Below are positions 28,735 to 41,452 of a stretch of DNA of 41,452 bases, one piece after another (the first letter of the stretch is position 1; the number at the start of each line of letters is the position of its first letter). The notes beneath the pieces were generated by a model, which saw only the letters and a program-made list of their open reading frames with translations, was not told the origin of the DNA and ran no database searches. Source of the DNA: Patescibacteria group bacterium (lineage in GTDB: Bacteria; Patescibacteriota; Microgenomatia; Levybacterales; UBA12049); the NCBI GenBank assembly GCA_023484045.1, contig JAMDAA010000036.1, forward strand, positions 1 to 41,452. Reading direction: 5' to 3'. Position numbers and translations under genes: made by a program.

Positions 28735-29709
28735 ATGGCAGAATTTGAATTTCTTCAGAATCCGATTACAAAAAAATGGGTTATATCTGCACCCCGAAGG
28801 GCCAAAAGACCGGATATCGCTAAAGGTTCTGAGCCGCCGTGTCCTTTCTGTGTCGGACGGGAAAAAGACGAAAAAGAAGTTTACAGAATCCCTGCCCGCA
28901 ATGCTAGCGCAAGCGTTGCAGGCGGGGGAGGCAAAGAGGGTGATGCTAATTGGTTGGTTCGAGTAATTCCGAATAAATTCCCTTTTGCGCCGATACACGA
29001 AGTTATAGTCCATTCTCCCGATCATCGCAAAAATTTTGACGAGCTTCCGCTTCCTCATATAGAACTTATTATTAAAACGTATAGACAACGTTTTAACGAG
29101 CATCAAAAAAAAGGACAGGTTTGCATTTTCCATAATCGGGGAGAACGGGGTGGGGAAAGCTTGCCGCATCCTCATACGCAGCTTGCAGTTGTTCCTTTTG
29201 AGGTTAAAATGGAGCTTTCTAGGCTTGATCCGCAAGCTTCTGTAGGCCAAGCCCCGAAAGCTTTGGGAATTTATTCAAATACCTCAGAGAACCAGATAGT
29301 CGAAAGTGAGATGCTGGAAACTCCATGTTTTTACCTTTTTTGTCCTAAAACGAGTCAATGGCCGGATGAAGTCTGGATCGCACCGAAAAGTCGCGGTAGA
29401 TTGTTTGGAGAAATAACAGACGAAGAGATTACAGATTTTGCCTATACCCTTCAAAGGCTTATTCAAATTTTTGATCATCGGCACGGTAACGAATTTCCCT
29501 TTAATTTTTATATTTATCCGGGCGGGGATTGGTATTTAAGGCTTATTCCGCGACAAAAAACAATCGGAGGATTTGAGTTGGTAACCGGAATTTTTGTCAA
29601 CACGCAAAATCCCAAAGAAACTTTAAGCTTTATAAAAGAGCATTTCGAAAAACCCGATATCGAGAAAATAAAACTGCAGCATCAAGCAGAATATTTCAGA
29701 CACGTCTAA
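28735..29709 (+). CDS. galT: GalT-family hexose-1-phosphate nucleotidyltransferase
   Basis: RRAKRP, CPFC, VRVIPNKFP, HEVIV and GESLPHPHTQ (HPH). Substrate cannot be determined from sequence. Confidence 0.85.
   Translation: MAEFEFLQNPITKKWVISAPRRAKRPDIAKGSEPPCPFCVGREKDEKEVYRIPARNASASVAGGGGKEGDANWLVRVIPNKFPFAPIHEVIVHSPDHRKNFDELPLPHIELIIKTYRQRFNEHQKKGQVCIFHNRGERGGESLPHPHTQLAVVPFEVKMELSRLDPQASVGQAPKALGIYSNTSENQIVESEMLETPCFYLFCPKTSQWPDEVWIAPKSRGRLFGEITDEEITDFAYTLQRLIQIFDHRHGNEFPFNFYIYPGGDWYLRLIPRQKTIGGFELVTGIFVNTQNPKETLSFIKEHFEKPDIEKIKLQHQAEYFRHV
28891..28926. repeat. 36-bp palindromic element in frame within the galT-like gene
   Basis: CCTGCCCGCAATGCT-AGCGCA-AGCGTTGCAGGCGGG, encoding PARNASASVAGG. 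Confidence 0.8.
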
Positions 29710-29728: not shown

Positions 29729-31510
29729 CTAATTTACTTTTACTCCATTCATCTTTACTCCGTTAAATTTTATAGCAGGAACAAGAGTGGGTGTTGGTGT
29801 TGGAGTAGGCGTTGAGTAATTGACTGTTAAATACGTTCTTCGCGTGGGAAAATCAACATTTGTGCCGGGCTGTATCCAAATCCACTCGTTGGCGGTGTTT
29901 GCGACTCCATTATCCCGGGAACTTTTAAAACAATAAAAAGTAGAGCCGGTTTTATTAATCCAGGCTGTGTCCAAATTCGGGCTAGTTGGACTGCCGGTTG
30001 CTCCAGTAGTAAACCAGATAACAGGGTTTGAATTATTATTACTGTCGCTATAACTGTTATAACAGCCGGTATAATTACCCTGCATATTTCCAGAGTTAAG
30101 CGGCGACGTCCAATTGTATTTTAGTATCTGCACATTAAAACTAATAGCAGACGAGCATTCACCAGTACCAGTGCAGTCAGTTGTTAAAGTAGCGTTATTA
30201 ACAATGCCGGAACTGCCGATAGAACTGGTATCAAAAGAATAAAAGTTTCTATATATGGTATATTGTGGGCCACCTTTTGCATCAAGATAAGCGCGTCCTA
30301 ACCACATGTGGTGACCATTTGCATTAGCAAAATTATACGCAGTAGTATGTGCTGTATTATAGTTAGTTGATTGGCCCTCAATGTATCCTTGAGTGGATTC
30401 AGCATAGCTAGTTATGTCTGGGTCGATGGTAATAGGGTAAATTAGTTTATTAAGCATGCCGGCAGCAATACCAGTGTAGAGGTATTGAGTATTGTTGACT
30501 TTTTGCGCAAACCATTTAGTAAAGACATTTTGTCCTGTTGCTTGTTTTGTTTGCGGCAGGGGAAATGTTTGGCTGCCAAGAGTAATAGGTTCTGTTACCC
30601 AGCCATCAGGTAAATCAAGCCCTTTGACTTCTGTTTCCATGACCAGCCAATCATCAGAGTCCTTTCCAATAATTTGTCCTAAGTCGGGTTTTTGATAAAA
30701 GGTTAGCTCTTCAACTAATCCATCTGGATTGCCTAAGGTATAAACGTGGGAAAAATCAGAAGTTTTCATAATGTACTGGTTACCCTTAATTTGGCCTTGA
30801 GGAAGATCGGCTATTTTTTTATATATTTTAGTATTAGGGTTATACAAGCCAAAAGAGATAGTTTCTTCCTCAAAAGGTGTGTTTTTGAAAATAACGACAC
30901 CGTCTTTATTAATAACAATGGGGATGCCGGAAGCTGTTATTTCGTCTTCCCCATCTTTTAATGTGTTATCAATTGGTTCCCATTCGTCACCTTCCTTATA
31001 AAAAATTGGGTTTGGAGTAAAAACACCTCGGATAGTGCCATCAGCCTCTCTAAAATGGACAGATGTGGTATTAGTTTTGATAATTTGTTTACCCTTTTGA
31101 TCTGGTTGCTCTTTGAAGTATAAGGCTAGAAAAGAACCCGCAGAGGGTTTAGGAAAGGTTGATCCCGGCAGACCATTGCCCCAGTTAAATTCGAAAGAAG
31201 AATCGGCATCACTCGCATAAACGTCGGGATTTAACAGTTCCAACCTGTATTTACCCGTTACGACTGTTTTGTCTTTTAAACTAATCCGAAAAACCTCGGA
31301 GCCGGTCTTGTAAATTTCTGACTCTACTTCTTCGTTATTTTTCTCCCTGATGATTTTAACTCGAGGTGGTTTACCATTCGGGGAGAAGAAAGTAAAGATT
31401 GGCACTTCAGAAATAGAGAAATCATTTTTAGGATACTCTAAGGCTTGAGCAGGAATGGCTAATATTAAAAATAGTACAAGAGGGAGAAATAGAGACAGTA
31501 TTTTTTTCAT
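29729..31510 (-). CDS. Secreted multidomain protein
   Basis: Signal peptide (AQA), WEPIDNTL...YPITIDP segment, DNRLRE-like YRNFYSFDTSSI...NNATL region, PT linker and short C-terminal tail. Confidence 0.8.
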   Translation of the reverse strand: MKKILSLFLPLVLFLILAIPAQALEYPKNDFSISEVPIFTFFSPNGKPPRVKIIREKNNEEVESEIYKTGSEVFRISLKDKTVVTGKYRLELLNPDVYASDADSSFEFNWGNGLPGSTFPKPSAGSFLALYFKEQPDQKGKQIIKTNTTSVHFREADGTIRGVFTPNPIFYKEGDEWEPIDNTLKDGEDEITASGIPIVINKDGVVIFKNTPFEEETISFGLYNPNTKIYKKIADLPQGQIKGNQYIMKTSDFSHVYTLGNPDGLVEELTFYQKPDLGQIIGKDSDDWLVMETEVKGLDLPDGWVTEPITLGSQTFPLPQTKQATGQNVFTKWFAQKVNNTQYLYTGIAAGMLNKLIYPITIDPDITSYAESTQGYIEGQSTNYNTAHTTAYNFANANGHHMWLGRAYLDAKGGPQYTIYRNFYSFDTSSIGSSGIVNNATLTTDCTGTGECSSAISFNVQILKYNWTSPLNSGNMQGNYTGCYNSYSDSNNNSNPVIWFTTGATGSPTSPNLDTAWINKTGSTFYCFKSSRDNGVANTANEWIWIQPGTNVDFPTRRTYLTVNYSTPTPTPTPTLVPAIKFNGVKMNGVKVN

Positions 31511-31537
31511 GAATATTTTTAATATATCATATAATAA

Positions 31538-32311
31538 TTAATTTTTTTCCGGCTTCCAGGCTTGAAGCCTTTTTTCTAAAAAATTAACCAATAGTGTTAA
31601 AGCTAGTCCCAAAAAGATAATAATAATTACCATTGCAAAAAGTTTATCCGTTTGAAAGGTGTTGCCAAAATAAGTGATTAGATAGCCTATGCCTTTATTG
31701 GAGACATAAAATTCCGCTACCAGCATCCCGGATAGCCCTCTAATAACTGCCATTCGTAGCCCGCTGGCAATAAAAGGCAATGTCGCGGGGAAAATAATAT
31801 TAGTAATAATCTTTAAGTCGCTACCCCCAAAAGACTTGCCAAGCCGGATAAAATCATGGTCAATATTTCTGACTCCGGCGATCGTGTTGATTAGAATCGG
31901 GAAAAAAGCAGCCAGAAATACTATAGTTACCTTTGGCCAGAAACCCAAACCGATCCAAATCAGAATTAGCGGGAAGATGGCAATAGTGGGCATGGCATAA
32001 AAGGAAGTTAGGAGGGGACTAAAAAACCAATGAATCTTTTTGTACCAGCCGAAGAAAATGCCAAGGATTACCCCAAAGATAACTGCCAAGCCTATTCCCA
32101 GGAAAAATTCTTCTAGGCTTGCCAGTAAATGCTCGTAGATTAATCCTTGGGCAAATAATTGGTGTAATGAGATAACAACTTGATGAGGAGGAGTTAGAAA
32201 TAAGGGATTATTTACTACGAATAAGGCTATAACTTCCCAGAGGATAATAAAAGCAATTAAGCCCAGGATGCCAAGCTTGATGTTTAATCCGAATAATTCT
32301 TTTTTTCTCAT
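31538..32311 (-). CDS. ABC transporter permease, SsuC/TauC/NrtB family
   Basis: About 6 TM helices, PTIAIFPL, EAA-like loop (RLGKSFGGS...IIFPATLPFIASGLR), VAE and GIGYLI. Confidence 0.93.
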   Translation of the reverse strand: MRKKELFGLNIKLGILGLIAFIILWEVIALFVVNNPLFLTPPHQVVISLHQLFAQGLIYEHLLASLEEFFLGIGLAVIFGVILGIFFGWYKKIHWFFSPLLTSFYAMPTIAIFPLILIWIGLGFWPKVTIVFLAAFFPILINTIAGVRNIDHDFIRLGKSFGGSDLKIITNIIFPATLPFIASGLRMAVIRGLSGMLVAEFYVSNKGIGYLITYFGNTFQTDKLFAMVIIIIFLGLALTLLVNFLEKRLQAWKPEKN

Positions 32312-33100
32312 CTATTTGGTCCCTTCTTGAGCAAGCAGAAGTCTTACTCTGTTTTTAACCGACAAAAACGACCGGTTTTTTTTAAAACTTACCTTACGGT
32401 CTTTTCCTAAATTGGTATTAACAATTGTCTTTATTTCTCCAGGCCCGGGGCTCAATAACAGAATCCGGTCGGCTAAAAATACAGCCTCGTCAATATCATG
32501 CGTCACAAAAATAAAAGTTTTTTTACTAATGAGAAAAATCCGCCGTAATTCTAGCTGTAGTTTCTCTTTGGTAATTAAATCAAGATGGGAAAAAGGTTCA
32601 TCCAAAAGTAGCACCTCTGGGTTACAAACATAGGCCCTTGCCAAATTAACCCGTTGTTTTAATCCGCCTGAAAGCTCGTGAGGATAAAAATTCTTAAAAT
32701 TACCAAGGCCAAAAAGGTTTAGAGTTTTGTCGATATCATTTTGTTTATTTTTCGGGCTGATGCCGGATATCTCAAGCCCAAGGGTGATATTACTATGAAC
32801 TGTTCTCCATGGCAGCAAAAGTGCATCCTGAAAAACCATAGTTATTTGTTTTTTTAAAGTATTATGGCTGTTTTTTATAAAGATTGTTCCACTTGTTGGC
32901 CTAATTAAACCAGCCAAGCAATTTAATATTGTTGTTTTGCCACAACCAGAAGGACCAATGATCGCAAGAAATTCGCCTTTTAGAACGTCAAAGCTAATGT
33001 CGTTAATTGCTAGAAGATTTTTTTTATCGTTTGAATAACTAACACTTAAATCGCTAACTTTAATTTTAATTGACTTTTTACTTTTATTTTTACTTGACAT
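32312..33100 (-). CDS. ABC transporter ATP-binding protein, SsuB/TauB family
   Basis: GPSGCGKT, VFQ..LLPW, LSGG, LLLDEPF and VTHDIDEA. Confidence 0.96.
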   Translation of the reverse strand: MSSKNKSKKSIKIKVSDLSVSYSNDKKNLLAINDISFDVLKGEFLAIIGPSGCGKTTILNCLAGLIRPTSGTIFIKNSHNTLKKQITMVFQDALLLPWRTVHSNITLGLEISGISPKNKQNDIDKTLNLFGLGNFKNFYPHELSGGLKQRVNLARAYVCNPEVLLLDEPFSHLDLITKEKLQLELRRIFLISKKTFIFVTHDIDEAVFLADRILLLSPGPGEIKTIVNTNLGKDRKVSFKKNRSFLSVKNRVRLLLAQEGTK

Positions 33101-33121
33101 ATTATGCTACAACTATATAAT
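33094..33121 (+). promoter_or_regulatory. Sigma70 promoter of the substrate-binding protein gene
   Basis: TTGACA-16 nt-TATAAT; the -35 box overlaps the start codon of the divergent ATPase gene. Confidence 0.6.
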
Positions 33122-33131
33122 GTAAACTATT

Positions 33132-34163
33132 ATGAAAAACAGAAATATTAGTCTACTTTTAATTTTTGTTGTTATCGGTGCTCTTATTTATTGGTTATTA
33201 TTAAATAATAAACCTGCTAGTAAATCAACTATTACCAAAACTCCTTTGACAAAAGTCAGGCTGGCCTATATTAGCAGTAATTTATTCCAACTTCCACTAA
33301 TAGTAGCTGAGGAAAAAGGTTACTTTAACGAGAATGGAATAGAAGTAAAACTTGATCCATTAAGCGAAAGGGTCCCCGTGCAGCTTAATAGTAATCTTGA
33401 TGATATTGGTATTACCCAAAATTACGGTTTATTAATATCAGCCGTTCAGGGAGGGAATTTAGTTTGGATAGGGTCGATATTAAACAACAGAAATGTCGTG
33501 GTTGTTTCCGATAAGCCTATTAATCGGATTAAAACTCTCGCTACTACTCAAAATTCTTATTATGATCATCTTAATAAAGAAGTAATGAAAATAAATAAAA
33601 ACCTCGAGAATGTGGAAATATTAAATATTAAATCACAACCCACGAGACTAGAGTCTTTAGCGGCAGGAAAAGTCGACGCTGCTTTAGTTGAAGAAACGCT
33701 TTGGGTGGCTTTTCAAAAAAAGAATAATCTCACCGGTTCTTATAAAGTAATATTCAACACTTCGGATTATTCTGATCTTTTTGATCCGGTAGTTATAGGT
33801 GTTAGGGTTGATTATCTTAAAACTAACCAGCCGGCTGTTGAAAGCTTTTATAAGAGCATGATTGAATCAATCAGCTGGATAAGGGAACACAGAAAGGAAG
33901 CTGTTGGTCTTTTTAAAAAGAGCTCAATGGGAATGTCTGACGAGGAAGCGCAAATTTATGTAAATAGTTATATTGAATCAAGCAACAATTTACAACTTGT
34001 GCCCAATACAACCACTGCCGGCAAAAGTCTTAAATTTATAGAATCTGATGTCGCTAATTATAAAAAGTATGATTTAGACCATTATATTAATTTATCTGTT
34101 ATTAAGTCTTTAGAAAAGAGCGGGTTTTTATCTAAATTTTCGTTTACTTCAAGTGGGAAATAA
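33132..34163 (+). CDS. ABC substrate-binding protein, SsuA/NMT1/THI5-like, TM-anchored
   Basis: N-terminal TM, VRLAY, LPLIVAEEKGYFNENGIEV, LAAGKVDAA and FYKSMIESISWI. Confidence 0.9.
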   Translation: MKNRNISLLLIFVVIGALIYWLLLNNKPASKSTITKTPLTKVRLAYISSNLFQLPLIVAEEKGYFNENGIEVKLDPLSERVPVQLNSNLDDIGITQNYGLLISAVQGGNLVWIGSILNNRNVVVVSDKPINRIKTLATTQNSYYDHLNKEVMKINKNLENVEILNIKSQPTRLESLAAGKVDAALVEETLWVAFQKKNNLTGSYKVIFNTSDYSDLFDPVVIGVRVDYLKTNQPAVESFYKSMIESISWIREHRKEAVGLFKKSSMGMSDEEAQIYVNSYIESSNNLQLVPNTTTAGKSLKFIESDVANYKKYDLDHYINLSVIKSLEKSGFLSKFSFTSSGK

Positions 34164-35412
34164 TACGCTTTCTTTTTACCTCGGGGAGGAAAGCATTTAC
34201 GAATTCAATCTCAAGCGGCAAAAAAGCTCCTTTTTGAACTAAGTCTATCAACCTAGACCTGCTTGAAATATATAAATTATTGCTGACATATTCAGTTATT
34301 CTAACTTGTAGCTGTTGATTATTCTTGCGGTCGTTTTTTGCTATTAATTGCAATTTCAGCCGGGTAATAAATTTGCCTTCGTGAATTTCTTCAAAAACAT
34401 GCAGTTTCCAATCATCTGCTAAATAGTCAGTAAAGGGTAGTAGGACTTGCTCGATTAATCCAGTGTAAATAAAAGCTCCGGCAATTTTGATCATATCGAG
34501 TCCTAGTTTGCCCTTGACTTCCATAATAATTTTTTCCCCACAGAGACATATTTTTTGTTGAAAAGATACGCTATCACCTGTTTTATATCTAATCAGGGGA
34601 AAATTTGCTTTTGTAGACATCCGGGTGATCGCGAGTTCACTTTCTGCCTCCGGATTTAATAGTTCATAAAAAGTATCTGAAAGCGGATGAAAAAAGCGCG
34701 GCATCTCTTTTGCTAAAAAGCCGCAACGGTCCCCGAGTTTGGAAGCTTCGGAGCTTGCATAAGTGAAATCAAAATAAGCATTAGGAAATTCTCGCTTAAG
34801 AAATGCGAATTTTTGTTCGGAACAATATTCACCCCTTAAGGATATATGATTTATGCGGCTTAAAGAATATTCTTTTTTTAGAAAAGGGGCAAAATAATAT
34901 AACGTTGTGGCTGATGTGAAAACAGAGTCAATCTTGACATTTTTAGCAATTTTGGCAGTCAGAGGTAAATTGTTGATATCGCCGGGAATAACCATAACTC
35001 CTTTTGTATTTGCTAAAAGCCACATCATCCTAAAATTTGCTTGTAGAATCGGAAATAACAATAAGCATCTCTTAACTCTTAACCCGTCAAAAAATTTTAA
35101 AGTTGACTTAGGAATTGTATAATTTTTCGAGAATAAGATAAGAGGCGTTTTAGAATCTGTTGTCCCGCTTGAGACAGCGATGTTTTTAATATTTTTGACA
35201 GGAAAATAAATCCTTTTTTCGGGATCAGTATTAAGTAACTCTTTTCTTGTTAAAAAGGGCAGTTTTTTAAAATCAGCTAAAGTTTTTATTTCTTGCCAGC
35301 TTTTTACTCCGTGTTTTTGGTATTTCAAACGATAAAACGAAGAATAAGGACTATCCCAAACGAATTGAAGGACTTTTTTAATTTTTCTGAAGGGAGCTTG
35401 AGGGTACTCCAT
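34144..35412 (-). CDS. PaaK/F390-synthetase-like adenylate-forming ligase (ANL superfamily)
   Basis: FYR..Y, DFKKLPFLTR, P-loop SSGTT, GE, YASSE, FPLIRYKTGD, hinge GKLGLDMIKIAG and C-terminal KRKRI. Confidence 0.88.
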   Translation of the reverse strand: MEYPQAPFRKIKKVLQFVWDSPYSSFYRLKYQKHGVKSWQEIKTLADFKKLPFLTRKELLNTDPEKRIYFPVKNIKNIAVSSGTTDSKTPLILFSKNYTIPKSTLKFFDGLRVKRCLLLFPILQANFRMMWLLANTKGVMVIPGDINNLPLTAKIAKNVKIDSVFTSATTLYYFAPFLKKEYSLSRINHISLRGEYCSEQKFAFLKREFPNAYFDFTYASSEASKLGDRCGFLAKEMPRFFHPLSDTFYELLNPEAESELAITRMSTKANFPLIRYKTGDSVSFQQKICLCGEKIIMEVKGKLGLDMIKIAGAFIYTGLIEQVLLPFTDYLADDWKLHVFEEIHEGKFITRLKLQLIAKNDRKNNQQLQVRITEYVSNNLYISSRSRLIDLVQKGAFLPLEIEFVNAFLPEVKRKRIISHLK

Positions 35413-35451
35413 GCGGGTATTGTAACAAAAAAAATATTAATTAACTACAAA

Positions 35452-37101
35452 TTACCGGATATTGTTATTATACTCGACCGACAGCTCTTGTAGTGTTTTA
35501 ATATCTTGTTTGCCGTAATAAGACTTTATCTGTTCTTGATCCCAATAAGGTAAATCATCGGGATTATTTGAAGTTACCTGCCTGTGGTCGATAAATTTTG
35601 GCTTTTCAGATAGTCTCCAAACAGAGGGTGAAAAAGTAAGGTATGTTAGGCTCCAGGCGCTGCGGGGTAGATAAAAACTAGAAAGGAGATTACTCTCGTT
35701 GATTATTTGGCTTTTCCTGTTTGCCGCAAATAGCCAGTTCCATTCGTAAATAATTTTTTTGATAACCATTGGAAAGTTACTTAATTGGCGATTTATAATA
35801 AGGTACCTTTGTAATAATTTCTCTTTACTGTCTTGATCTGAGACGTTATTATAAAAAAAAGCGTAATAGGTTGAAAGATATGAAGCCTGCTGATATGAAG
35901 GCATGGAAGAACTAAAAAAACTTTTTTCCAAACTTCCGGCTGGGCCGACTCCATTTAAAAGCGGTTTTTGCCGGTATGTTTGGATAAAATAATCTAATGT
36001 TGCAAGTCTTGGCTCAAAACTCAAGTCGGGACATAGATAGTTCATCGTTTCTCTCTGCCAGAACCATTCGTATCCCTTAGGGAAGTCATTCTCCCACCCA
36101 TTCCTAGCAACGTGGCGAAAATAATTATTTGAAGCAAGTTTGAGGCCTAAAAATGTATTTTCCTCGGCTTCAAGCCGAAAATCCCGTTTTTTAAACACAT
36201 AATAAGGAAACTCTTCGGCGGAGCCAAAACAAGCGCCAGTTGCAAGATAGGGGCCGTTGATAGTTTTTTTTTCTTCATTGTCGGTTCCAACAAAAAGCAA
36301 GCTCGAGCTTAATATTTTAGGGGGCGATTGAATAATGGGGGAGTTTGCGGGTTTAATAAAGGCGGCGGCTGGCCGATAACAGCCGGCTCCGGACGAGAGA
36401 CAGCCGGCTCTTTTATCCACCTCGGCTTTTAAGGCAGATGCGTTTTTTTCTAAAAGATTAAGATCGGATAAAATAATTTTTTTGGAGCTAACGGATTTGA
36501 GAAAAACCAGATTACCTTGCGGAATCTCATTCTGGTGGTTTTTGATGGTTTTAATAAAATCACTACTATCTTTTTGATATTTTTGCGCGGCTTGTTTGTA
36601 GGTAATTAGAAGATTTTCGGCTGATATATCACCGGGTTTTGCCAAAAATTGTCCCTCTGCCTGCTTAACAGTATCTAAAGAAGATAGAAAAGAAGTAGGG
36701 AAGAGATGGGGATATTTGGAATGATTAGTAGTAAAAGTATCTTCAACTGTTCTTAAGCCATTGACTGCATTTTTTAATCCGGAAATATCCAAGTCGGGAC
36801 TGATAAAGAGGGGATCTTCCTTAGTTAATAAATAAAAATAGACAAGCTGTTTTACTTGTTGCTTCTGATTGTAGTTGATTGGTCGGTTATCCCAAGCGGT
36901 AATCGTACCCTTTTTAAAGCTGTAGTCTCTATTCCCAGATCTTAATTTTTCAATAGTGATATCATTGATTGATCTGGAATTATCAAACAGGTTTAAATTA
37001 CGAAAAACTACAGGTAAAATAATGGCAAGTATTGTCCCTAGCAAAAAGAAAACAAGATAAAATTTCTTCACAGAGAATCTATTATATCCCAACTTATTCA
37101 C
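35452..37101 (-). CDS. Large single-pass membrane protein with an extracytoplasmic domain of unknown function
   Basis: 549 aa; basic N-terminus plus TM, then a helical domain with four Cys. No family recognised. Confidence 0.8.
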   Translation of the reverse strand: MNKLGYNRFSVKKFYLVFFLLGTILAIILPVVFRNLNLFDNSRSINDITIEKLRSGNRDYSFKKGTITAWDNRPINYNQKQQVKQLVYFYLLTKEDPLFISPDLDISGLKNAVNGLRTVEDTFTTNHSKYPHLFPTSFLSSLDTVKQAEGQFLAKPGDISAENLLITYKQAAQKYQKDSSDFIKTIKNHQNEIPQGNLVFLKSVSSKKIILSDLNLLEKNASALKAEVDKRAGCLSSGAGCYRPAAAFIKPANSPIIQSPPKILSSSLLFVGTDNEEKKTINGPYLATGACFGSAEEFPYYVFKKRDFRLEAEENTFLGLKLASNNYFRHVARNGWENDFPKGYEWFWQRETMNYLCPDLSFEPRLATLDYFIQTYRQKPLLNGVGPAGSLEKSFFSSSMPSYQQASYLSTYYAFFYNNVSDQDSKEKLLQRYLIINRQLSNFPMVIKKIIYEWNWLFAANRKSQIINESNLLSSFYLPRSAWSLTYLTFSPSVWRLSEKPKFIDHRQVTSNNPDDLPYWDQEQIKSYYGKQDIKTLQELSVEYNNNIR

Positions 37102-37154
37102 AATTTAATACTTGCAAATTAAAGCATTTTAATACAAACTGGGCTTAGGGGGAA

Positions 37155-37421
37155 ATGAAAATTAAAACACTTAAAACTTCTTCCAAGCTTTTTCTTTGTA
37201 CCATGCTTGGCTTTGGGTTGGTATTTTGTCTGGAAAAACTCGCTAATGCAAAAATTATTTTTCCATCCGCAGCCCAATCGACAATCTCAGCAGACATTAA
37301 TCCTAAAACATTGATTTGTCAGGCCGATCCTCCGCAAACAATAGATCAATCTTCTATTCTGGGAAAACAGGCGATGGAGAATAAGGCCTGTTTATTTATC
37401 GGCTGTGGCGGATTTTTCTAA
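37155..37421 (+). CDS. Small exported peptide ending CLFIGCGGFF; candidate signal or RiPP precursor
   Basis: SD-like AGGGGG, basic N-region, hydrophobic helix, ANA cleavage motif, low-complexity linker; the stop directly follows CGGFF. Confidence 0.75.
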   Translation: MKIKTLKTSSKLFLCTMLGFGLVFCLEKLANAKIIFPSAAQSTISADINPKTLICQADPPQTIDQSSILGKQAMENKACLFIGCGGFF

Positions 37422-37544
37422 AAAGGTTGCCATTGGCATACCCGTTCAAAATATTTTGTCAACCTCGCAAGGTAAAGTGTTCTCTGTCTTTTTTCGTCTT
37501 TATGAACAACATTTGTTCTAAATACCAATAGAGTCTTTTTGTAT

Positions 37545-37970
37545 TTATCTTATTAAATTACTTGCTTGTATACCGAATAATTGATGCCAGTAATTAAAAG
37601 TTAAAATTTGATAAATATCTCTTTTTTTCATTAGAACTACATTTAATGCTTCTCTAAAATTAATATCTTTTTCCTTATTCGCTTTTAAAATTCTTAATGC
37701 CGAGACGAAATCTGTCTTTTGAGGGAATATGATTTCTATTTCTGAAATAAGAATTATGTCTAAAAATTCTAGAGCTAAAGAATTACTTGCTTCGCGGGCA
37801 AGTGTATAATAGGCCTCTGTTATATTATGAGAGCTCGTAGAAACCTGATATTCTAATCTTCCCAAAGTATCAAAAGCCCTTATTGTTTTTTGATGATTAG
37901 GATCGGCCCTGTCGATAAAAGAATATAAAACCGTAGAATCGATAAAAATTTTACTTGACTGAATAGACAT
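37545..37970 (-). CDS. PIN-domain (VapC-like) protein with a non-canonical active site
   Basis: IFIDST, D.NH, TSSHNITE; INFREA and LTFN where Asp residues are expected. Confidence 0.85.
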   Translation of the reverse strand: MSIQSSKIFIDSTVLYSFIDRADPNHQKTIRAFDTLGRLEYQVSTSSHNITEAYYTLAREASNSLALEFLDIILISEIEIIFPQKTDFVSALRILKANKEKDINFREALNVVLMKKRDIYQILTFNYWHQLFGIQASNLIR

Positions 37971-37974
37971 AATT

Positions 37975-38247
37975 TTATGATTTATTCATACTTAATCCTC
38001 TTGCCCTTAGTCTAAAAAACGGATCGGAGAGCGAAAACGGCTTTTTCTTTTTTGTTTTTAAGCCTGGGTTTTTCTGGACATTTGGAGTAAAACCTTCGAT
38101 AAAACTTCTTAAATCACTGGCGGATATTCTTATATTCCCACCAGCCCTAAAGGCGTTTAATTTTTCTTCCCTAATATATCTTCTAATCGTTAAGGGGTGT
38201 ACTTTTAGTATTAATGCAACTTGAGAAACACTGTAATACTCATCCAT
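37975..38247 (-). CDS. Excisionase-type HTH (HTH_17) protein, putative antitoxin or regulator
   Basis: YYSVSQVALILKVHPLTIRRYIREEKLNAFRAGGNIRISASDL; 4 nt upstream of the PIN gene. Confidence 0.9.
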   Translation of the reverse strand: MDEYYSVSQVALILKVHPLTIRRYIREEKLNAFRAGGNIRISASDLRSFIEGFTPNVQKNPGLKTKKKKPFSLSDPFFRLRARGLSMNKS

Positions 38248-38272
38248 AAAAGACTATGCAATTATATGTAAT

Positions 38273-38301
38273 AATATACAATATTATATAAACTTTGTCA
38301 A
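38273..38301 (-). promoter_or_regulatory. Sigma70 promoter of the HTH-PIN operon
   Basis: Minus strand TTGACA-17 nt-TATATT. Confidence 0.55.
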
Positions 38302-38371: not shown

Positions 38372-41300
38372 ATGTCTAAAAGTCTGCCCATAAACGAAAA
38401 TAGAAAATTAGTAGTTATTAGCGAAGCAGCAAAAATTCTAGGAGTGTCGATCGATACCATAAGACGATGGGATAAGACTGGGATTTTGCATTCAACCCGG
38501 CCAAACGGAAAAAACCGTTATTTTTCCGTAGAGGAACTAGAAGAAATTAAATTTTCACAAAGCTTGCCGATTTCGGAAGCATCCAAAAGACTCGGAATTT
38601 CCGAAACTACCTTAAGAAGACTTGATACAAAAGGAATTTTAAAGGCAAAAAGGAATAAAAATAAAGAGAGGGTTTATGATAGGGAAGCCCTGGATAAATT
38701 TCTTAATTCTGACTATTTTCTCCGTAAAAAGGAAATCGAGGATGAAATTCTTAAACCATTAGTTTCACTTCCGGAAAACAAGAAAAAAGAATCAAGATTT
38801 CAGACAAGACAAAAGATAATCGGTGCGTTAGTCCAAGACAACACCGAAAAGATAATCCATTTGTGGAATTTTAGAAAAGCATTTCTTTTAAGCACGTTAT
38901 TGCCAATCACCATTTTCATTTTTTTAGTCGCGATTATCACGATTTTATTTTTGCTCTTCCCTTTGCAAACGGCAAAATGGTTTGGGTATAGGAAGCCCGA
39001 AAATTTGATTAGTTATGTAAATTCAATAGATAGAGGTCAAGTTTTAGGAGCTCAAACCTCACAAGGGAATGAGATTACAGGACAAGTATTGGGAGTAATG
39101 CTTAGGCCTGTAAGCGCGGTGTCGTTGGAAGTTGTTAAAGTAGTTAATAAAAATACGTATGATGAGATTACGGCAGAGCAAAAGATAAAAAACGTAAATG
39201 ATATTTTAAAGATAAATTCTAATGGAGAGATTGTGGTCGAAAAACAGCTAATGCTTCCAGACAGTTCTTATCTAAAGATTCCCGATCAGAAAGTGGTAGT
39301 AAATTTAAATTCAGAACTTGTTGACGGTAAAAAACCCGGAAGCGGAGAAGGAGATTTAACTGTTTGGGGAGTCGGAGGATCGATTCCTGGACTTATTATT
39401 AATTCATCAGATCTCGTGGACGGAGCGGTGACAACGGAAAAATTAGCTGCGAACGCTGTAACTACAGGAAAAATCGCCGACGGAGCGATTACATCTGCAA
39501 AATTTGTTTCTGGTTTAACTTTTACTCCGAGTGATAATTCCGTAACGAGCGCCAAGATAGTTGACGGGACAATAGTTGATATAGACATATCTTCTTCGGC
39601 GTCGATCAGTGATTCCAAACTTGCGCAAATTACATCTTCTAATAAAGTTGCCGGTAGCGCAATTCAACTTTCTTCAACAGGCGGTTTAGTCAATAATTCG
39701 GGATTGTCGTTAAAAACAACATGCACTACTAGTCAGGTTTTAGTTTGGGACGGTAGTACTTGGGCTTGCGGTACAGGCGGAGGATCAGGAACGATAACAG
39801 CAGTTGTTGCCGGATCGGGATTAACGGGGGGCGGGACATCCGGTTCGGTTACATTAGCGGTATCGGGATTAACGGTTTCCCATTTTGCATCAGCCAATAT
39901 TTCTCAATGGACAAACAATTCGGAATATCTTACTTTATTAACGTTTCCGTATAACTCGACAAATCTTACGATTAATGGTTCAAATAAACTAGATACAATT
40001 CAGGGAATTTCAACAGCCGCTACGCCAACCTTTGCCGGATTGTACGTAACGGGTAATATGGGTATCGGGACAACGACTCCTTTTTCTCCTCTTCATATTT
40101 CCGGAGGAAACACGGGAGGAAGATCGGTTGCGATTTTTGACCAGACAGGTGCGTCGAGTAACGACATACTCTCCGCCTCAGCTTCCGGAGCGACAAAGAT
40201 GACTCTTAACAATGGTGGGGATTTAACACTCTCCGGTAATGTATCAATCGCAACGGGTAAAACATACTCCATTAGCGGTTCCACGAGCCAGACTTATGCC
40301 TCTGCTGTCTGTGTCACAACAACAGGAGGAATTGTAACGGGAACAGGAGCGTGTACCGGGGGTAGTACTACAGATTACTGGACTCTTGCAAACGGTACTC
40401 TCTATCCTGTCAATACTACTCTCGATGTCTTAATCGGTGGAACTGCAACGAGTGGCGCTAATTTTGCAAAATTTGCATTCACCGGAGTTAACGGGAGTAA
40501 TACTCCGACAGCTTCCATATCGGCGGGAACTGCAGGAGGAGTTTACCTAACATCAACAGGAATACTAGCCACAACAGCGAGACAAACATTAACGCTCGGA
40601 GATTCGACGACGACTGGGAATGTAATATTTAATCAAGCGGGAAATGTTGGTATCGGGACAACAAGCCCAAGAAGTAATCTTCATATATCAGACAGTGGAC
40701 AATACAAGCCCAATTTAATGATTGAAGGGACATATAACGGATCTGCAAGTGACGCAAATTTATATATTAAAAGGACAAAAAATAATGCTGTTCTCTCGAA
40801 CTGGGATACAATCGGATATGTTAGATTCACCTCTATTAATTCTACTCCTACCCAAACAGACTATGCCCGCATAAATGGACAGGTTGGTTCTTCGACTGCT
40901 GGATCGGAAAGAGGTTCTTTAAACTTTGAAGTCATGGATAATGGAAGCATTATAACCTTTTTAAGGTTCAACGGCTATGATACTGTTGTCAACGACAATA
41001 AAAATAATATTGATTTTTACGTTAGAGGACAAGTTGATTCTAATTTGCTCTTTGCGGATGCAAGTTTAAACAGTATCGGTGTTGGGACTGGATCTCCCCT
41101 CTCTCTTCTCCATGTATCAGGAGGAAATATTGGAGGTAGGGCTTTGGCGATATTTGATCAGAGAGGAGCAACAGCAAATGATATCTTAACAGCCTCAGCT
41201 TCCGGAGCAACAAAATTAACTCTTGGTAATGCAGGAGATTTAACTGTAACTGGGAATGTAGCGGCAGGAACAGGAAAAGCGTTTTATGTCGGATCAACCC

Positions 41301-41452
41301 AAGGCCAAACCTACGGATCAGCTGTGTGTGTAACCACAACCGGCGGAATAGTTACGGGAACTGCGGCCTGCCCAGGAGGAACAGGGGGAAGTAATTGGAC
41401 TCTGGAAAACGGAACACTGCATCCGAATAACGCCACTCTCGATGTCTTAATC
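38372..41452 (+). CDS. Giant surface protein: two MerR-like HTHs, TM helix, tail-fibre/adhesin-like repeats; truncated by the window edge
   Basis: Manually translated, 1027 codons without a stop. ISEAAKILGVSIDTIRRWD and ISEASKRLGISETTLRRLD, TM LPITIFIFLVAIITILFLLF, QVLG twice, DGAVTTEKLAANAVTTGKIADGAITSAK, and GN(M/V)GIGTT(T/S)P repeats. Confidence 0.9.
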   Translation, partial: MSKSLPINENRKLVVISEAAKILGVSIDTIRRWDKTGILHSTRPNGKNRYFSVEELEEIKFSQSLPISEASKRLGISETTLRRLDTKGILKAKRNKNKERVYDREALDKFLNSDYFLRKKEIEDEILKPLVSLPENKKKESRFQTRQKIIGALVQDNTEKIIHLWNFRKAFLLSTLLPITIFIFLVAIITILFLLFPLQTAKWFGYRKPENLISYVNSIDRGQVLGAQTSQGNEITGQVLGVMLRPVSAVSLEVVKVVNKNTYDEITAEQKIKNVNDILKINSNGEIVVEKQLMLPDSSYLKIPDQKVVVNLNSELVDGKKPGSGEGDLTVWGVGGSIPGLIINSSDLVDGAVTTEKLAANAVTTGKIADGAITSAKFVSGLTFTPSDNSVTSAKIVDGTIVDIDISSSASISDSKLAQITSSNKVAGSAIQLSSTGGLVNNSGLSLKTTCTTSQVLVWDGSTWACGTGGGSGTITAVVAGSGLTGGGTSGSVTLAVSGLTVSHFASANISQWTNNSEYLTLLTFPYNSTNLTINGSNKLDTIQGISTAATPTFAGLYVTGNMGIGTTTPFSPLHISGGNTGGRSVAIFDQTGASSNDILSASASGATKMTLNNGGDLTLSGNVSIATGKTYSISGSTSQTYASAVCVTTTGGIVTGTGACTGGSTTDYWTLANGTLYPVNTTLDVLIGGTATSGANFAKFAFTGVNGSNTPTASISAGTAGGVYLTSTGILATTARQTLTLGDSTTTGNVIFNQAGNVGIGTTSPRSNLHISDSGQYKPNLMIEGTYNGSASDANLYIKRTKNNAVLSNWDTIGYVRFTSINSTPTQTDYARINGQVGSSTAGSERGSLNFEVMDNGSIITFLRFNGYDTVVNDNKNNIDFYVRGQVDSNLLFADASLNSIGVGTGSPLSLLHVSGGNIGGRALAIFDQRGATANDILTASASGATKLTLGNAGDLTVTGNVAAGTGKAFYVGSTQGQTYGSAVCVTTTGGIVTGTAACPGGTGGSNWTLENGTLHPNNATLDVLI
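40051..41452 (+). repeat. Internal duplication of an approximately 128-aa module in the giant protein
   Basis: About 40051-40435 and 41068-41452 both read G.GT..P...LH.SGGN.GGR..AIFDQ.GA...SASGATK...SAVCVTTTGGIVTGT.AC...WTL.NGTL.P.N.TLDVLI; offset 1017 nt. Confidence 0.9.

What the first reader, a model, noticed from the sequence alone, without database searches (positions are those of the whole stretch)
31538..37421. Candidate AgrB-independent thiolactone peptide system: CGGFF-ending precursor, PaaK-like ligase, ABC importer, unknown membrane protein
Seen: an 88-aa exported peptide ending CLFIGCGGFF-stop, divergent from a 549-aa membrane protein and a PaaK-like ligase, next to a SsuABC-type transporter; no paa catabolic genes in the window. 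Known: Agr autoinducing peptides are five-residue rings joining a Cys thiol to the C-terminal carboxyl, with two hydrophobic terminal residues (CDFIM, CSSLF), made by AgrB from a precursor with a C-terminal follower. PaaK-type enzymes adenylate aryl-acid carboxylates and transfer them to thiols. Inference (untested): here the Phe carboxyl is already free, so the ligase could adenylate it and close a C-G-G-F-F thiolactone before export, with the ABC system or the 549-aa protein sensing or recapturing it. That would be a new RiPP or quorum-signal route. Alternatives: a CxxxxC disulfide loop, or ordinary aryl-acid uptake and CoA activation. By eye the block from about 29.7 kb also has fewer host-typical TCGA/CGAT words, hinting at an island.
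Basis: partly seen in the sequence, partly recalled or inferred. Interest (0 to 1): 0.85.

Follow-up and report, generated by a model that had tools for sequence, protein, structure and literature searches.

The report
Conserved Cys-tailed peptide, ligase, membrane-protein module
A tiny-genome (Patescibacteria) bacterium carries a rare, conserved and undescribed gene set in which a small membrane-targeted peptide with an invariant cysteine-containing tail always travels with an ATP-using ligase, an unknown surface-side membrane protein and a small-molecule importer, which points to a new way of chemically arming or loading a peptide.

Summary
The 88-aa ORF ending CLFIGCGGFF is one of 17 distinct peptides of 70-104 aa. 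All have an N-terminal hydrophobic helix, a variable linker and a C-terminal C-x-[GN]-F-[FYT] tail.

In 14 of the 15 other loci that hold both a ligase and a p549 homologue, such a peptide lies in the cluster. The exception is a truncated contig. In 401 class genomes the tail occurs only in genomes that carry p549.

The core is peptide + PaaK-family adenylating ligase + a ~550-aa N-anchored protein. This protein gave a confident model with no clear structural match. A small-molecule importer is always adjacent but changes type: ThiY/SsuA-like ABC in most loci, Vut_1 in one, a sodium:solute symporter in one. Ligase and binding-protein genes form convergent pairs and are amplified together.

"Recapture" of the peptide by the ABC system is unlikely.

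My best reading (0.4) is that the ligase couples an imported small molecule to the tail, at the Cys thiol or the terminal carboxylate, and that p549 handles the product outside. This is loosely like DltA-DltX-DltD.

The block also looks like an acquired island.

The parts
37155..37421 (+). Precursor or carrier peptide of 88 aa. It has a K-rich N-terminus plus a 17-residue hydrophobic segment (residues 10-26), a polar variable linker with one Cys, and the conserved tail CLFIGCGGFF-stop.
   Evidence: ORF. RBS. Sixteen homologous peptides elsewhere with the same architecture. Hydrophobic segment and Cys counts. It is the only one of 4095 ORFs of >=40 aa in the genome with this tail.
37389..37418 (+). 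The conserved tail itself (C-L-F-I-G-C-G-G-F-F). The invariant Cys lies 4 residues before the C-terminus.
   Evidence: Alignment A4 has C84, G86 and F87 invariant. The five further tails and P0277 keep C-x-[GN]-F. A DNA pattern scan of 401 genomes found real copies only in p549-bearing genomes.
35452..37101 (-). p549: a 549-aa protein with one N-terminal transmembrane helix and a large, probably extracytoplasmic domain. It belongs to no known family and gave no clear structural match. It is a core partner of the peptide.
   Evidence: No Pfam or NCBIfam hit. 276 homologues among 1.84 billion representatives. AF2 model at pLDDT 93.2 with helix 11-35. No Foldseek match at E<=0.001, and best VIA Z 6.4, which is generic helices. 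Four near-invariant Cys. Some homologues are fused behind a PMT_2 (GT-C) membrane domain.
34144..35412 (-). PaaK-family (ANL superfamily) adenylate-forming ligase of 422 aa, cytoplasmic, with no signal sequence.
   Evidence: NCBIfam PaaK/FlxY/DVU_1553 at E 1e-14 to 1e-17, far below cut-offs. The family profile matches PDB 4r1l at E 2e-26 over residues 5-392, and also NatL2/AjiA1. Conserved SSGTT, xSE, RYKTGD, G..D..K..G and the C-terminal Lys413.
33132..34163 (+). Membrane-anchored substrate-binding protein of the NMT1/ThiY/SsuA type. It is convergent with the ligase gene and overlaps it by 20 bases.
   Evidence: Pfam NMT1 at 4e-19. AF2 pLDDT 88.8. Foldseek top hits are ThiY 3ix1, Thi5, SsuA, the thiamin binder 4nmy, TauA and PqqT. 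The convergent ligase/SBP pair recurs in 10 other loci.
32312..33100 (-). ABC importer ATPase (NitT/TauT-type)
   Evidence: ABC_tran at 2e-35. Best NCBIfam hits are SaoA and the taurine and nitrate ATPases, all below cut-off.
31538..32311 (-). ABC importer permease (NitT/TauT-type)
   Evidence: BPD_transp_1 at 1e-29. Best NCBIfam hits are SaoP, TauC and SsuC, all below cut-off.
33094..33121 (+). Perfect sigma-70-like promoter (TTGACA-16-TATAAT) ending 11 bases before the binding-protein start codon.
   Evidence: 12 of 12 matches. The overall number of promoter-like sites in the region is not above shuffles (30 against 29.4), so only this site is notable.
29729..31510 (-). A 593-aa secreted protein with a PT-rich linker and a K/N-repeat C-terminus. 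It lies inside the low-TCGA block. Its membership of the system is uncertain.
   Evidence: ORF, no family. Similar C-termini occur on the DUF2341 proteins next to the cluster in L015 and L025. Homology to the same-genus genome stops at 29709, just before this gene.

Best explanation
This is a conserved, previously undescribed Patescibacteria module built around a small membrane-targeted peptide. The business end of the peptide is its extreme C-terminal tail, [C]-[LM]-[FYW]-x-[GD]-C-x-[GN]-F-[FYT].

Proposed mechanism (inferred, not shown):
1. A small molecule is taken up by the adjacent importer. This is usually a ThiY/SsuA-type ABC system, replaced in some lineages by a Vut_1 or a sodium:solute transporter.
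2. The cytoplasmic PaaK-family ligase spends ATP to form an acyl-adenylate and couples that small molecule to the peptide tail. Either an imported acid is loaded as a thioester on the invariant Cys, or the tail's terminal carboxylate is adenylated and joined to an imported nucleophile.
3. The peptide is then inserted or exported through its N-terminal helix, so the modified tail sits outside.
4. There the N-anchored ~550-aa protein binds it and transfers, reads or releases the group.

In logic this resembles DltA (ANL ligase), DltX (a small TM peptide whose C-terminal motif is a transient acyl carrier) and DltD (an N-anchored extracytoplasmic transferase). There is no homology to the Dlt membrane parts.

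Shown here: the parts, their strict co-occurrence, the tail conservation, the ligase's intact adenylation motifs, the small-molecule type of the binding protein and the changes of importer type.

Inferred: every chemical step, the topology and the role of p549.
For: (1) Co-occurrence. Of 15 other loci that hold both ligase and p549 (L015, L016, L017, L023, L025, L028, L029, L030, L033, L034, L064-L068), 14 have a 70-104-aa ORF with the tail. The exception, L025, is a 12-kb contig that ends inside the binding-protein array, beyond which the peptide lies in the related L015.
- In 401 class genomes p549 is in 5.
- The tail DNA pattern hit 21 genomes, but only 4 hits are real ORFs. All four are in p549 genomes, and the fifth p549 genome has only a 2.7-kb contig.
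- In a phylum sample p549 is in 6 of 401, and all 5 new genomes have ligase + peptide.

(2) An importer component is adjacent in all 15 loci, but it is of three unrelated kinds.
- NMT1-type binding protein, with or without ABC genes, in 13.
- Vut_1 directly after the ligase in L065. That 99%-complete genome has no permease homologue with this query.
- A sodium:solute symporter directly before p549-ligase in L034.

(3) Ligase and binding-protein genes form convergent tail-to-tail pairs in the window and 10 other loci. Their copy numbers rise together (3/3 in L015, 2/2 in L016) while the peptide stays single. The ligase paralogue groups are old.

(4) The binding protein models as a ThiY/Thi5/SsuA/TauA/PqqT-like small-molecule binder.

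(5) The ligase keeps all ANL core motifs, including the C-terminal Lys.

(6) The invariant Cys looks like a lone functional thiol. Cys counts after the hydrophobic segment are 3 in 12 peptides, 2 in 4 and 1 in 1. The one-Cys peptide keeps only the invariant Cys.

(7) CoA as the acceptor is not obviously available. CoaE was not found over its cut-off in any of 6 cluster-bearing genomes (92-100% complete), and DFP was not found in G000. The controls rang in 10 of 14 and 14 of 14 reference genomes.

(8) Precedents read as passages or abstracts:
- The DltX C-terminal motif acts as a transient acyl carrier that binds DltD (PMC13653941).
- Signal-peptide-bearing RiPP precursors are modified before export (PMC13056109, abstract).
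- Peptide C-terminal carboxylates are adenylated by AS-like enzymes (PMC13060819).
Against: - No result here shows contact between the ligase and the peptide.
- PaaK-family enzymes with known function act on small acids and use CoA or small nucleophiles. None is known to use a peptide thiol or a peptide C-terminus (my knowledge of the family plus the names).
- The genome has 4 GNAT acetyltransferase genes, so acyl-CoA of some origin probably exists in the cell.
- If the tail is loaded inside and used outside, one ribosomal peptide is spent per group, which is costly.
- No membrane acyltransferase (MBOAT) was found in the genome, so the Dlt-like route across the membrane is missing.
- Topology is only a charge-bias inference. 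The N-flank is more positive in 10 of 17 peptides, equal in 5 and reversed in 2.
- The identity of the small molecule is unknown, and no riboswitch was found in the window or 14 loci.
Confidence: 0.4

Rival explanations
1. The ligase adenylates the peptide's own C-terminal Phe carboxylate and the Cys four residues upstream attacks it, giving a 5-residue C-x-G-F-F thiolactone without AgrB. The cyclised tail is exported as a signal, or stays tethered as a reactive thioester.
For: - The Cys-to-terminus spacing is exactly Agr-like in 15 of 17 tails. The ring would have a central Gly/Asn and two aromatic terminal residues.
- The motif sits at the extreme C-terminus with a free carboxylate.
- The ligase's relatives bind aryl-alkyl acids, and a C-terminal Phe resembles these (inference).
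- Peptide, ligase and p549 co-occur strictly.
- ATP-driven, adenylation-based thiolactone formation on a ribosomal peptide has a precedent in the ThiF-like GrcB (PMC12596934, passages).
- No AgrB-like family was seen in the block.
Against: - Two of 17 tails have one extra residue after the aromatic pair (FTY, FFE), which changes the ring size or needs trimming.
- The model does not explain why a small-molecule importer of three different families is always adjacent, or why ligase and binding-protein genes pair and multiply together around one peptide.
- No PaaK-family enzyme is known to take a peptide C-terminus.
Confidence: 0.2
2. Ordinary salvage. The importer takes up a small carboxylic acid or vitamin-like precursor, and the ligase activates it to a CoA thioester or an amide for the cell's own metabolism. 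The peptide and p549 form a separate extracytoplasmic accessory pair, for example to release, capture or sense the substrate at the host surface. They are co-inherited because they serve the same nutrient.
For: - PaaK-family precedent for small acids.
- The binding-protein fold belongs to vitamin-precursor and sulfonate binders.
- The replacing transporters are Vut_1 (queuosine-precursor type) and a PanF/PutP-like symporter.
- Ligase and binding-protein genes are amplified together.
- Patescibacteria are known auxotrophs (general knowledge).
- GNAT genes imply that acyl-CoA is used.
Against: - The strict triad of peptide, ligase and p549 persists when the importer type changes (L065, L034). 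This ties the ligase more tightly to the peptide and p549 than to any one transporter.
- No paa catabolic oxygenase was found.
- No CoaE was found in 6 of 6 cluster genomes.
- It leaves an invariant Cys-aromatic tail without a role.
Confidence: 0.2
3. The peptide is an unmodified secreted or tethered ligand: a CX4C disulfide loop, a metal- or thiol-binding tail, or a small regulator of p549 or the transporter. On this view the ligase has nothing to do with it chemically.
For: - Two tail Cys are spaced by four residues in 15 of 17 peptides.
- Both the peptide and p549 are probably extracytoplasmic. p549 has four near-invariant Cys.
- The peptide gene is adjacent to p549 in most loci.
Against: - The first tail Cys is absent in 2 of 17 peptides. 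One peptide has a single Cys, and 13 of 17 have an odd number. A tail disulfide therefore cannot be the conserved feature.
- In four loci the peptide gene sits directly beside a ligase gene: upstream on the same strand in L015, L032 and L033, and convergent in L034.
- This does not explain the strict linkage to a cytoplasmic ATP-using enzyme.
Confidence: 0.1

Closest known systems
Agr autoinducing-peptide system (AgrD precursor, AgrB membrane endopeptidase)
   Same: It has a small ribosomal peptide with an N-terminal membrane-targeting helix. A Cys lies four residues before the residue that would close a 5-residue ring. The last ring positions are hydrophobic or aromatic.
   Different: No AgrB-type protein is in the block. 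The precursor has no C-terminal follower to cleave (15 of 17 end at the ring position). An ATP-using ANL ligase is present instead. No AgrC/AgrA-type sensor pair was seen among the conserved genes. A small-molecule importer is always adjacent.
Dlt D-alanylation pathway (DltA ligase, DltC, DltB MBOAT, DltX, DltD)
   Same: An ANL-superfamily ligase starts the pathway in the cytoplasm. There is a small single-helix peptide whose conserved aromatic motif at the extreme, extracytoplasmic C-terminus carries the acyl group (PMC13653941, passages). There is also an N-terminally anchored extracytoplasmic partner protein.
   Different: The ligase is of the PaaK subfamily, not DltA. No MBOAT was found in the genome. 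No carrier protein was seen in the cluster. p549 has no SGNH/DltD family hit and no matching fold. The candidate carrier residue is Cys rather than the DltX motif. The similarity is of logic only.
RiPP pathways that adenylate a peptide carboxylate (ThiF-like GrcB thiolactone, MccB/PaaA; asparagine-synthetase-like PesC/TsrC)
   Same: ATP-dependent activation of a carboxylate on a ribosomal peptide. For GrcB this is followed by Cys attack to give a thiolactone (PMC12596934). [quoted passage not shown]
   Different: Those enzymes belong to the E1/ThiF-like or asparagine-synthetase superfamilies and often carry a peptide-recognition domain. Here the enzyme is a PaaK-family ANL ligase with no extra domain. 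My paper searches found no ANL precedent.
Phenylacetate-CoA ligase PaaK and PaaK-like ligases (PDB 4r1l, 2y27; NatL2/AjiA1)
   Same: The same fold family. The profile match to 4r1l has E 2e-26 over nearly the full length and shares the CxCG and ANL core motifs.
   Different: It scores 58-63 bits against equivalog cut-offs of 646-700. No paa catabolic genes were found. It is embedded with a peptide gene and p549.
NitT/TauT-family ABC importers (ThiXYZ, SsuABC, TauABC)
   Same: Permease, ATPase and an NMT1-type binding protein. The binding-protein model is closest to ThiY, Thi5, SsuA, TauA and PqqT.
   Different: All hits are below equivalog cut-offs and the ligand is unknown. The binding-protein gene is paired tail-to-tail with a ligase gene. 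The whole importer is replaceable by unrelated transporters.
Signal-peptide-bearing RiPPs (bufferins, DAG-RiPPs)
   Same: The precursor carries a Sec-type N-terminal helix and a conserved Cys-containing C-terminal motif that is modified before export (PMC13056109, abstract).
   Different: Those use MNIO (DUF692) enzymes and the lipoprotein pathway. No such family was seen here, and there is no lipobox.

Membership tests
Agr quorum-sensing system | AgrB-family integral-membrane endopeptidase encoded with the precursor | tested here: not met
   A Pfam scan of all nine proteins of the block gave no AgrB hit. The genes conserved across loci are only ligase, p549, peptide and importer. The rest of the genome was not searched for AgrB.
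Agr quorum-sensing system | Precursor with a C-terminal follower that is cleaved when the ring closes | tested here: not met
   15 of 17 peptides end at the would-be ring residue. Two have one extra residue.
Agr quorum-sensing system | Cys placed so that a 5-residue thiolactone ring with a hydrophobic end can form | tested here: met
   C-x-[GN]-F-[FYT] is present in 17 of 17 peptides, and the chain ends there in 15 of 17. Ring formation itself cannot be tested here.
Phenylacetate-CoA ligase PaaK (equivalog) | Score above the curated NCBIfam cut-off | tested here: not met
   63.3 and 57.8 bits against cut-offs of 700 and 646.3.
Phenylacetate-CoA ligase PaaK (equivalog) | Genomic association with the paa ring-oxygenase pathway | tested here: not met
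   PF05138 (PaaA/PaaC) gave 0 matches in G000, which is 92% complete. The control rang in 4 of 14 genomes.
PaaK-like subfamily of ANL adenylate-forming enzymes | Full-length similarity to solved PaaK-like ligases and conserved adenylation motifs, including the C-terminal catalytic Lys | tested here: met
   The profile matches 4r1l at E 2e-26 over residues 5-392. Invariant or near-invariant S82-G83-T84, E222, R275-Y276-T278-G279-D280, G301, D306, G312 and K413.
NitT/TauT-type ABC importer | Permease + ATPase + NMT1/SsuA-type binding protein | tested here: met
   Pfam BPD_transp_1 1e-29, ABC_tran 2e-35, NMT1 4e-19. The binding-protein model is nearest ThiY/SsuA. The substrate is not determined.
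Dlt-type acyl relay | MBOAT membrane acyltransferase (DltB) | tested here: not met
   PF03062 gave 0 matches in G000. The control rang in 3 of 14 genomes.
Dlt-type acyl relay | Small TM peptide with a conserved extracytoplasmic C-terminal motif acting as acyl carrier | not testable with these tools
   The architecture is analogous. Carrier function needs biochemistry. Sequence relatedness to DltX was not tested.
Dlt-type acyl relay | DltD-type (SGNH-like) extracytoplasmic transferase | tested here: inconclusive
   p549 has no Pfam or NCBIfam hit, no Foldseek match at E<=0.001 and a best VIA Z of 6.4 to unrelated helical proteins. A weak or missing match does not exclude a shared fold.
ThiF-like adenylyltransferase RiPPs | E1/ThiF-like adenylating enzyme next to the precursor | tested here: not met
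   No ThiF-family hit among the block's proteins. The only ATP-using enzyme apart from the ABC ATPase is the ANL ligase.

The most novel reading that the evidence does not exclude
ATP spent in the cytoplasm is stored as a thioester on the peptide's invariant Cys. This is either a C-x-G-F-F thiolactone or an S-acyl group from an imported acid. The peptide carries it across the membrane on a ~50-residue tether.

Outside, where no ATP exists, p549 uses this activated tail for covalent chemistry. It would either acylate the envelope, the neighbouring giant surface proteins or the host cell, or act as a membrane-tethered 'chemical harpoon' that fixes an episymbiont to its host.

That would be a new ribosomal, single-use trans-membrane acyl carrier and the first peptide-directed PaaK-family ligase.
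Probability: 0.15. Interest if true: 0.9.

Novelty: new variant of a known kind. Interest (0 to 1): 0.75.

Why it matters
Patescibacteria (CPR) make up a large share of bacterial diversity. They live attached to other cells and have almost no characterised surface or signalling chemistry.

This is a sharply defined, testable module. It has a single-copy peptide with an invariant Cys-aromatic tail, an ATP-dependent ligase, a confidently modelled protein with no known family and no clear structural match, and a swappable importer.

If the ligase modifies the peptide, it would add an ANL/PaaK-type enzyme to the short list of enzymes that activate or load ribosomal peptides. It would also give a route by which cytoplasmic ATP energy could be exported as a thioester.

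If instead the system is a salvage pathway, the peptide-p549 pair would be a new extracytoplasmic accessory for nutrient capture by obligate symbionts.

Either way, two protein families (the peptide and p549) gain a first functional context. The small size of the system makes heterologous reconstitution realistic.

Tried and rejected
**Complex prediction.** Ligase (alignment A2) was paired with peptide residues 49-88 (alignment A4). The score was ipSAE 0.00 in two runs, verdict 'no answer', and the controls were not run. This counts neither for nor against binding.

**RNA evidence.** The look-up of sequencing runs listed 5 DNA holders (mine-tailings and sediment metagenomes) and no RNA holder. 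This says nothing about expression.

**p549 identity.**
- Foldseek against PDB gave nothing at E<=0.001.
- The best VIA-align wide score was Z 6.4, to GPCR-like helical bundles, which the tool's own note treats as a common arrangement.
- The Atlas gave no usable hit.
- The profile against PDB sequences gave nothing below E 0.2.
- The model was searched whole, not domain by domain, so 'no known fold' is not proven.

**Other negative searches.**
- Binding protein by sequence against PDB: no hit. The structural search did work.
- Riboswitch search, meant to identify the imported ligand: only tRNAs, in the window plus 6 loci, and nothing in 8 further loci, at gathering thresholds.
- The peptide by single-sequence search found only itself in 5.8 billion proteins, with no convincing hit in 60 relatives. 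A profile search found 7, one of them new. These word-indexed searches under-report short peptides.

**Ideas rejected.**
- The tail is a sorting signal shared with the neighbouring giant surface proteins. None of six checked ends with it, and only 1 of 4095 genome ORFs has it.
- Radical SAM genes are part of the core. They occur next to the cluster only in L029 and L030.

**Rows dropped from the counts.**
- L027, whose gene coordinates and peptide are identical to L017.
- L022, L024, L026 and L031, which are too short or lack p549.
- L032, which holds the peptide plus only the first 30 residues of a ligase.

**Literature.** Seven searches found no description of this cluster or tail. Subscription journals are not covered and supplements were closed.

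Full report
**What is in the window.**
The window is contig C10 of a 0.9-Mb, 92%-complete, 38-contig genome. Its relatives carry Daviesbacteria/Microgenomates names in public records, so it is a Patescibacteria (CPR) bacterium.

Family scans give the following.
- A BPD_transp_1 permease, an ABC_tran ATPase and an NMT1/SsuA-type binding protein. Their best NCBIfam neighbours are SaoP/SaoA, TauC/TauB and SsuC, all far below equivalog cut-offs.
- A ligase with no Pfam hit. Its NCBIfam hits to PaaK, FlxY and DVU_1553-type ligases are weak, at 51-63 bits against cut-offs of 300-700.
- No family at all for the 549-aa protein ('p549'), the 88-aa ORF, or the neighbouring 593-aa secreted protein.

**The peptide is real, and the cluster is conserved.**
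Single-sequence searches with the 88-aa ORF found only itself and nothing convincing in 60 related genomes. I therefore went through its neighbours.

The ligase has 463 homologues at E<=0.001, almost all unnamed or 'hypothetical', from CPR records. p549 has 276 homologues among 1.84 billion cluster representatives.

Fetching DNA around ligase homologues gave 3 genome loci and 10 metagenome loci. Fetching around p549 homologues gave more.

Fifteen loci other than the window hold both a ligase and a p549 homologue. In 14 of them a 70-104-aa ORF with the same architecture and the same C-terminal tail lies in the cluster.
- The one exception, L025, is a 12-kb contig that stops inside the binding-protein array. 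In its close relative L015 the peptide gene lies just beyond that array.
- L032, a 3-kb contig, holds a peptide gene followed by the start of a ligase gene.

With P0277 from a profile search there are 17 distinct peptides.

The reverse test also holds.
- In 401 genomes sampled across the class, p549 occurs in 5.
- A degenerate DNA pattern for the tail hit 21 genomes (the backwards-read control pattern also scored scattered hits). Only 4 hits lie in long open frames with the motif exactly 10 codons before the stop, and these are 4 of the 5 p549 genomes. The fifth p549 gene sits on a 2.7-kb contig.
- In a phylum-wide sample of 401, p549 occurs in G000 and in 5 of 10 genomes of one other family. 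All five have ligase and peptide next to it.
- The four class-level tail sequences differ by synonymous third-base changes at the Gly, Cys, Gly and Phe codons, as expected for selection on the protein.

**Anatomy of the peptide.**
All 17 peptides have a strongly hydrophobic 17-residue segment near the N-terminus (mean Kyte-Doolittle 1.9-3.2). A polar, poorly conserved linker and then the tail follow.

Tail conservation:
- Across the 17, C-x-[GN]-F is invariant.
- The next residue is F in 15, Y in 1 and T in 1.
- The chain ends there in 15. One more residue follows in 2 (…FTY, …FFE).
- The residue before the invariant Cys is G in 16 and D in 1.
- A second Cys five residues upstream is present in 15 of 17 and replaced by F or A in two.

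After the hydrophobic segment there are 3 Cys in 12 peptides, 2 in 4 and 1 in 1. The single-Cys peptide keeps only the invariant one. A CX4C disulfide therefore cannot be the conserved feature. The pattern fits a lone functional thiol (inference).

Charge bias favours N-in/C-out in 10 of 17 peptides, is neutral in 5 and reversed in 2 (my reading). Export of the tail is therefore likely but not certain. In the window's peptide an A-N-A motif after the helix could be a signal-peptidase site (by eye only).

**The ligase.**
A profile of the family matches solved PaaK-like ligases over nearly its full length: 4r1l at E 2e-26, and also 2y27, the 2-hydroxyisobutyryl-CoA synthetase, and the benzoxazole ligases AjiA1/NatL2.

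The P-loop-like SSGTT, the xSE, RYKTGD and G…D…K…G motifs and a C-terminal Lys are invariant or nearly so. It should therefore adenylate a carboxylate.

It has no signal sequence and no extra domain. It is not an equivalog of PaaK, and the genome has no PaaA/PaaC.

**p549.**
AlphaFold2 with 66 homologues gives a confident model (pLDDT 93.2, pTM 0.90). It has one N-terminal helix (residues 11-35) and a large helical/β domain.

No match was found by any route:
- Foldseek against PDB: nothing at E<=0.001.
- VIA-align against 48,161 chains: best Z 6.4, to unrelated helical bundles.
- Profile-to-PDB sequence search: nothing.
- Protein Atlas: nothing.

Four Cys (C234, C241, C291, C357) and several polar residues (E95, D213, N220, E227, R231, Y355, E392, R432) are invariant or nearly so. 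Some homologues are fused behind a PMT_2-type (GT-C) multi-pass membrane domain. Both points fit an extracytoplasmic location (inference).

The peptide gene is directly next to p549 in most loci, usually convergent or divergent. In the rest it is directly next to a ligase gene.

**The importer.**
The binding-protein model (pLDDT 88.8) is closest to ThiY (3ix1), Thi5, SsuA, a thiamin binder, TauA and PqqT. All of these bind small molecules.

Ligase and binding-protein genes lie tail-to-tail, often overlapping by a few bases, in the window and in 10 other loci. They are amplified together (3+3 in L015, 2+2 in L016) while the peptide, p549, permease and ATPase stay single. The ligase paralogue groups are old rather than recent copies.

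The importer changes kind.
- L065 comes from a 99%-complete genome with no permease homologue found. It has a Vut_1 / queuosine-precursor-transporter-like gene directly after the ligase.
- L034 has a sodium:solute symporter, with PanF and PutP as nearest models, directly before p549-ligase.

The invariant core is thus peptide + ligase + p549. A small-molecule importer is always at hand: 13 loci with an NMT1-type binding protein, 1 with Vut_1 and 1 with SSF, out of 15.

**Genome context.**
- CoaE was not found over its cut-off in any of six cluster-bearing genomes (92-100% complete).
- The DFP domain of CoaBC was not found in G000. Four GNAT genes are present.
- No MBOAT was found.

The block looks acquired.
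- TCGA/CGAT/ATCG words are three-fold depleted between about 30 and 38 kb.
- Similarity to the same-genus genome G001 stops exactly at the galT stop codon at 29,709.
- The ligase was not found in the other 36 sampled genomes of the same family.
- A PIN/HTH pair sits at the right edge.

**How it most likely works.**
Any explanation has to account for four things at once:
- a cytoplasmic carboxylate-activating enzyme;
- a small-molecule importer that co-varies with it;
- a single peptide with an invariant Cys-aromatic extreme C-terminus;
- an N-anchored outside-facing protein.

The reading that uses all four is that the ligase couples an imported small molecule to the tail. It would do so either as a thioester on the invariant Cys or through the terminal carboxylate. 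The peptide then presents the product outside, where p549 acts on it (confidence 0.4).

The nearest worked-out logic is the Dlt relay. There DltX, a small TM peptide, uses its conserved C-terminal motif as a transient acyl carrier and docks it into the N-anchored DltD (PMC13653941, passages read). The membrane parts here are unrelated, and there is no MBOAT.

It has a chemical precedent in ThiF-like GrcB (PMC12596934, passages). It leaves the importers and the ligase/binding-protein co-amplification unexplained, and it must cope with two tails that have an extra residue.

Plain salvage with CoA activation (0.2) fits the enzyme family and the transporter types. It leaves the peptide-p549 pair, which is the most tightly linked part, without a role.

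An unmodified disulfide or metal ligand (0.1) is weakened by the Cys pattern.

**Novelty and limits.**
No curated family (Pfam, NCBIfam), solved structure or paper found in seven searches describes this peptide, p549 or the cluster. Subscription literature and supplements were not searchable.

I file it as a new variant of the known kind 'ribosomal peptide plus ATP-dependent carboxylate-activating enzyme plus transporter'. It has an enzyme superfamily not previously tied to peptides and two new protein families. It fails the defining tests for Agr, Dlt, ThiF-type RiPPs and true PaaK. Every chemical step is still inference.

The complex prediction gave no verdict and no RNA data were found. Both are reported only as tried.

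Noticed in passing
window 29729-38300: The low-TCGA/CGAT block (6.4 against 19.4 words per kb) starts right after the galT stop, where similarity to the same-genus genome G001 ends. It ends near a PIN-domain/HTH_17 gene pair (37545-38247). This looks like a horizontally acquired island of about 8.5 kb carrying the whole system.
   Followed up: partly
window 33094-33132: A perfect TTGACA-16-TATAAT promoter ends 11 bases before the binding-protein ATG. The gap to the divergent ATPase gene is only 31 bases. This suggests a leaderless or near-leaderless mRNA.
   Followed up: no
window 29729-31510; L015 14591-16600; L025 9382-11439: The 593-aa secreted protein next to the cluster ends in a PT-rich linker followed by short K/N-rich repeats. 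So do the DUF2341 proteins that flank the cluster in L015 and L025. Giant surface-protein genes of 1566-2815 aa also abut the peptide gene in L017, L023 and L065. None carries the Cys tail.
   Followed up: partly
L029 898-2726; L030 4534-7257: In one divergent lineage, two or three radical SAM genes sit divergently upstream of the cluster operon. Their best but sub-threshold hits are HxsC/HxsC4, MoaA and AhbD. Beside them is a 382-aa membrane protein with a weak prepilin-peptidase hit. They were not seen in the other loci.
   Followed up: partly
proteins P0163 and P0147 (homologues of window 35452-37101): Two p549 homologues of 916-932 aa carry an extra N-terminal multi-pass domain of about 400 aa. 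It is PMT_2 (GT-C glycosyltransferase) in P0163, with a weak Agl23-like hit in P0147. This hints that the p549 domain works on the outer face with lipid-linked or glycan chemistry. Their gene neighbourhoods could not be fetched.
   Followed up: partly
whole genome G000 and genomes G147, G222, G409, G483, G654: No dephospho-CoA kinase (CoaE) match over its cut-off was found in any of six cluster-bearing genomes, and no CoaBC DFP domain in G000. Yet G000 has four GNAT acetyltransferase genes. How these cells obtain CoA is open.
   Followed up: partly
L024 374-4449 and window 28735-29709: In metagenome contig L024 a ligase-permease-ATPase set lies next to a galT gene 61% identical to the window's galT. 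The cluster therefore neighbours galT in two different arrangements.
   Followed up: no
window 38372-41452: A protein of more than 1027 aa runs off the window. It starts with two helix-turn-helix-like repeats (by eye similar to the HTH_17 protein at 37975-38247). A hydrophobic helix and a long Gly/Thr/Ser-rich repetitive region follow. This is an odd combination and was not scanned against families.
   Followed up: no
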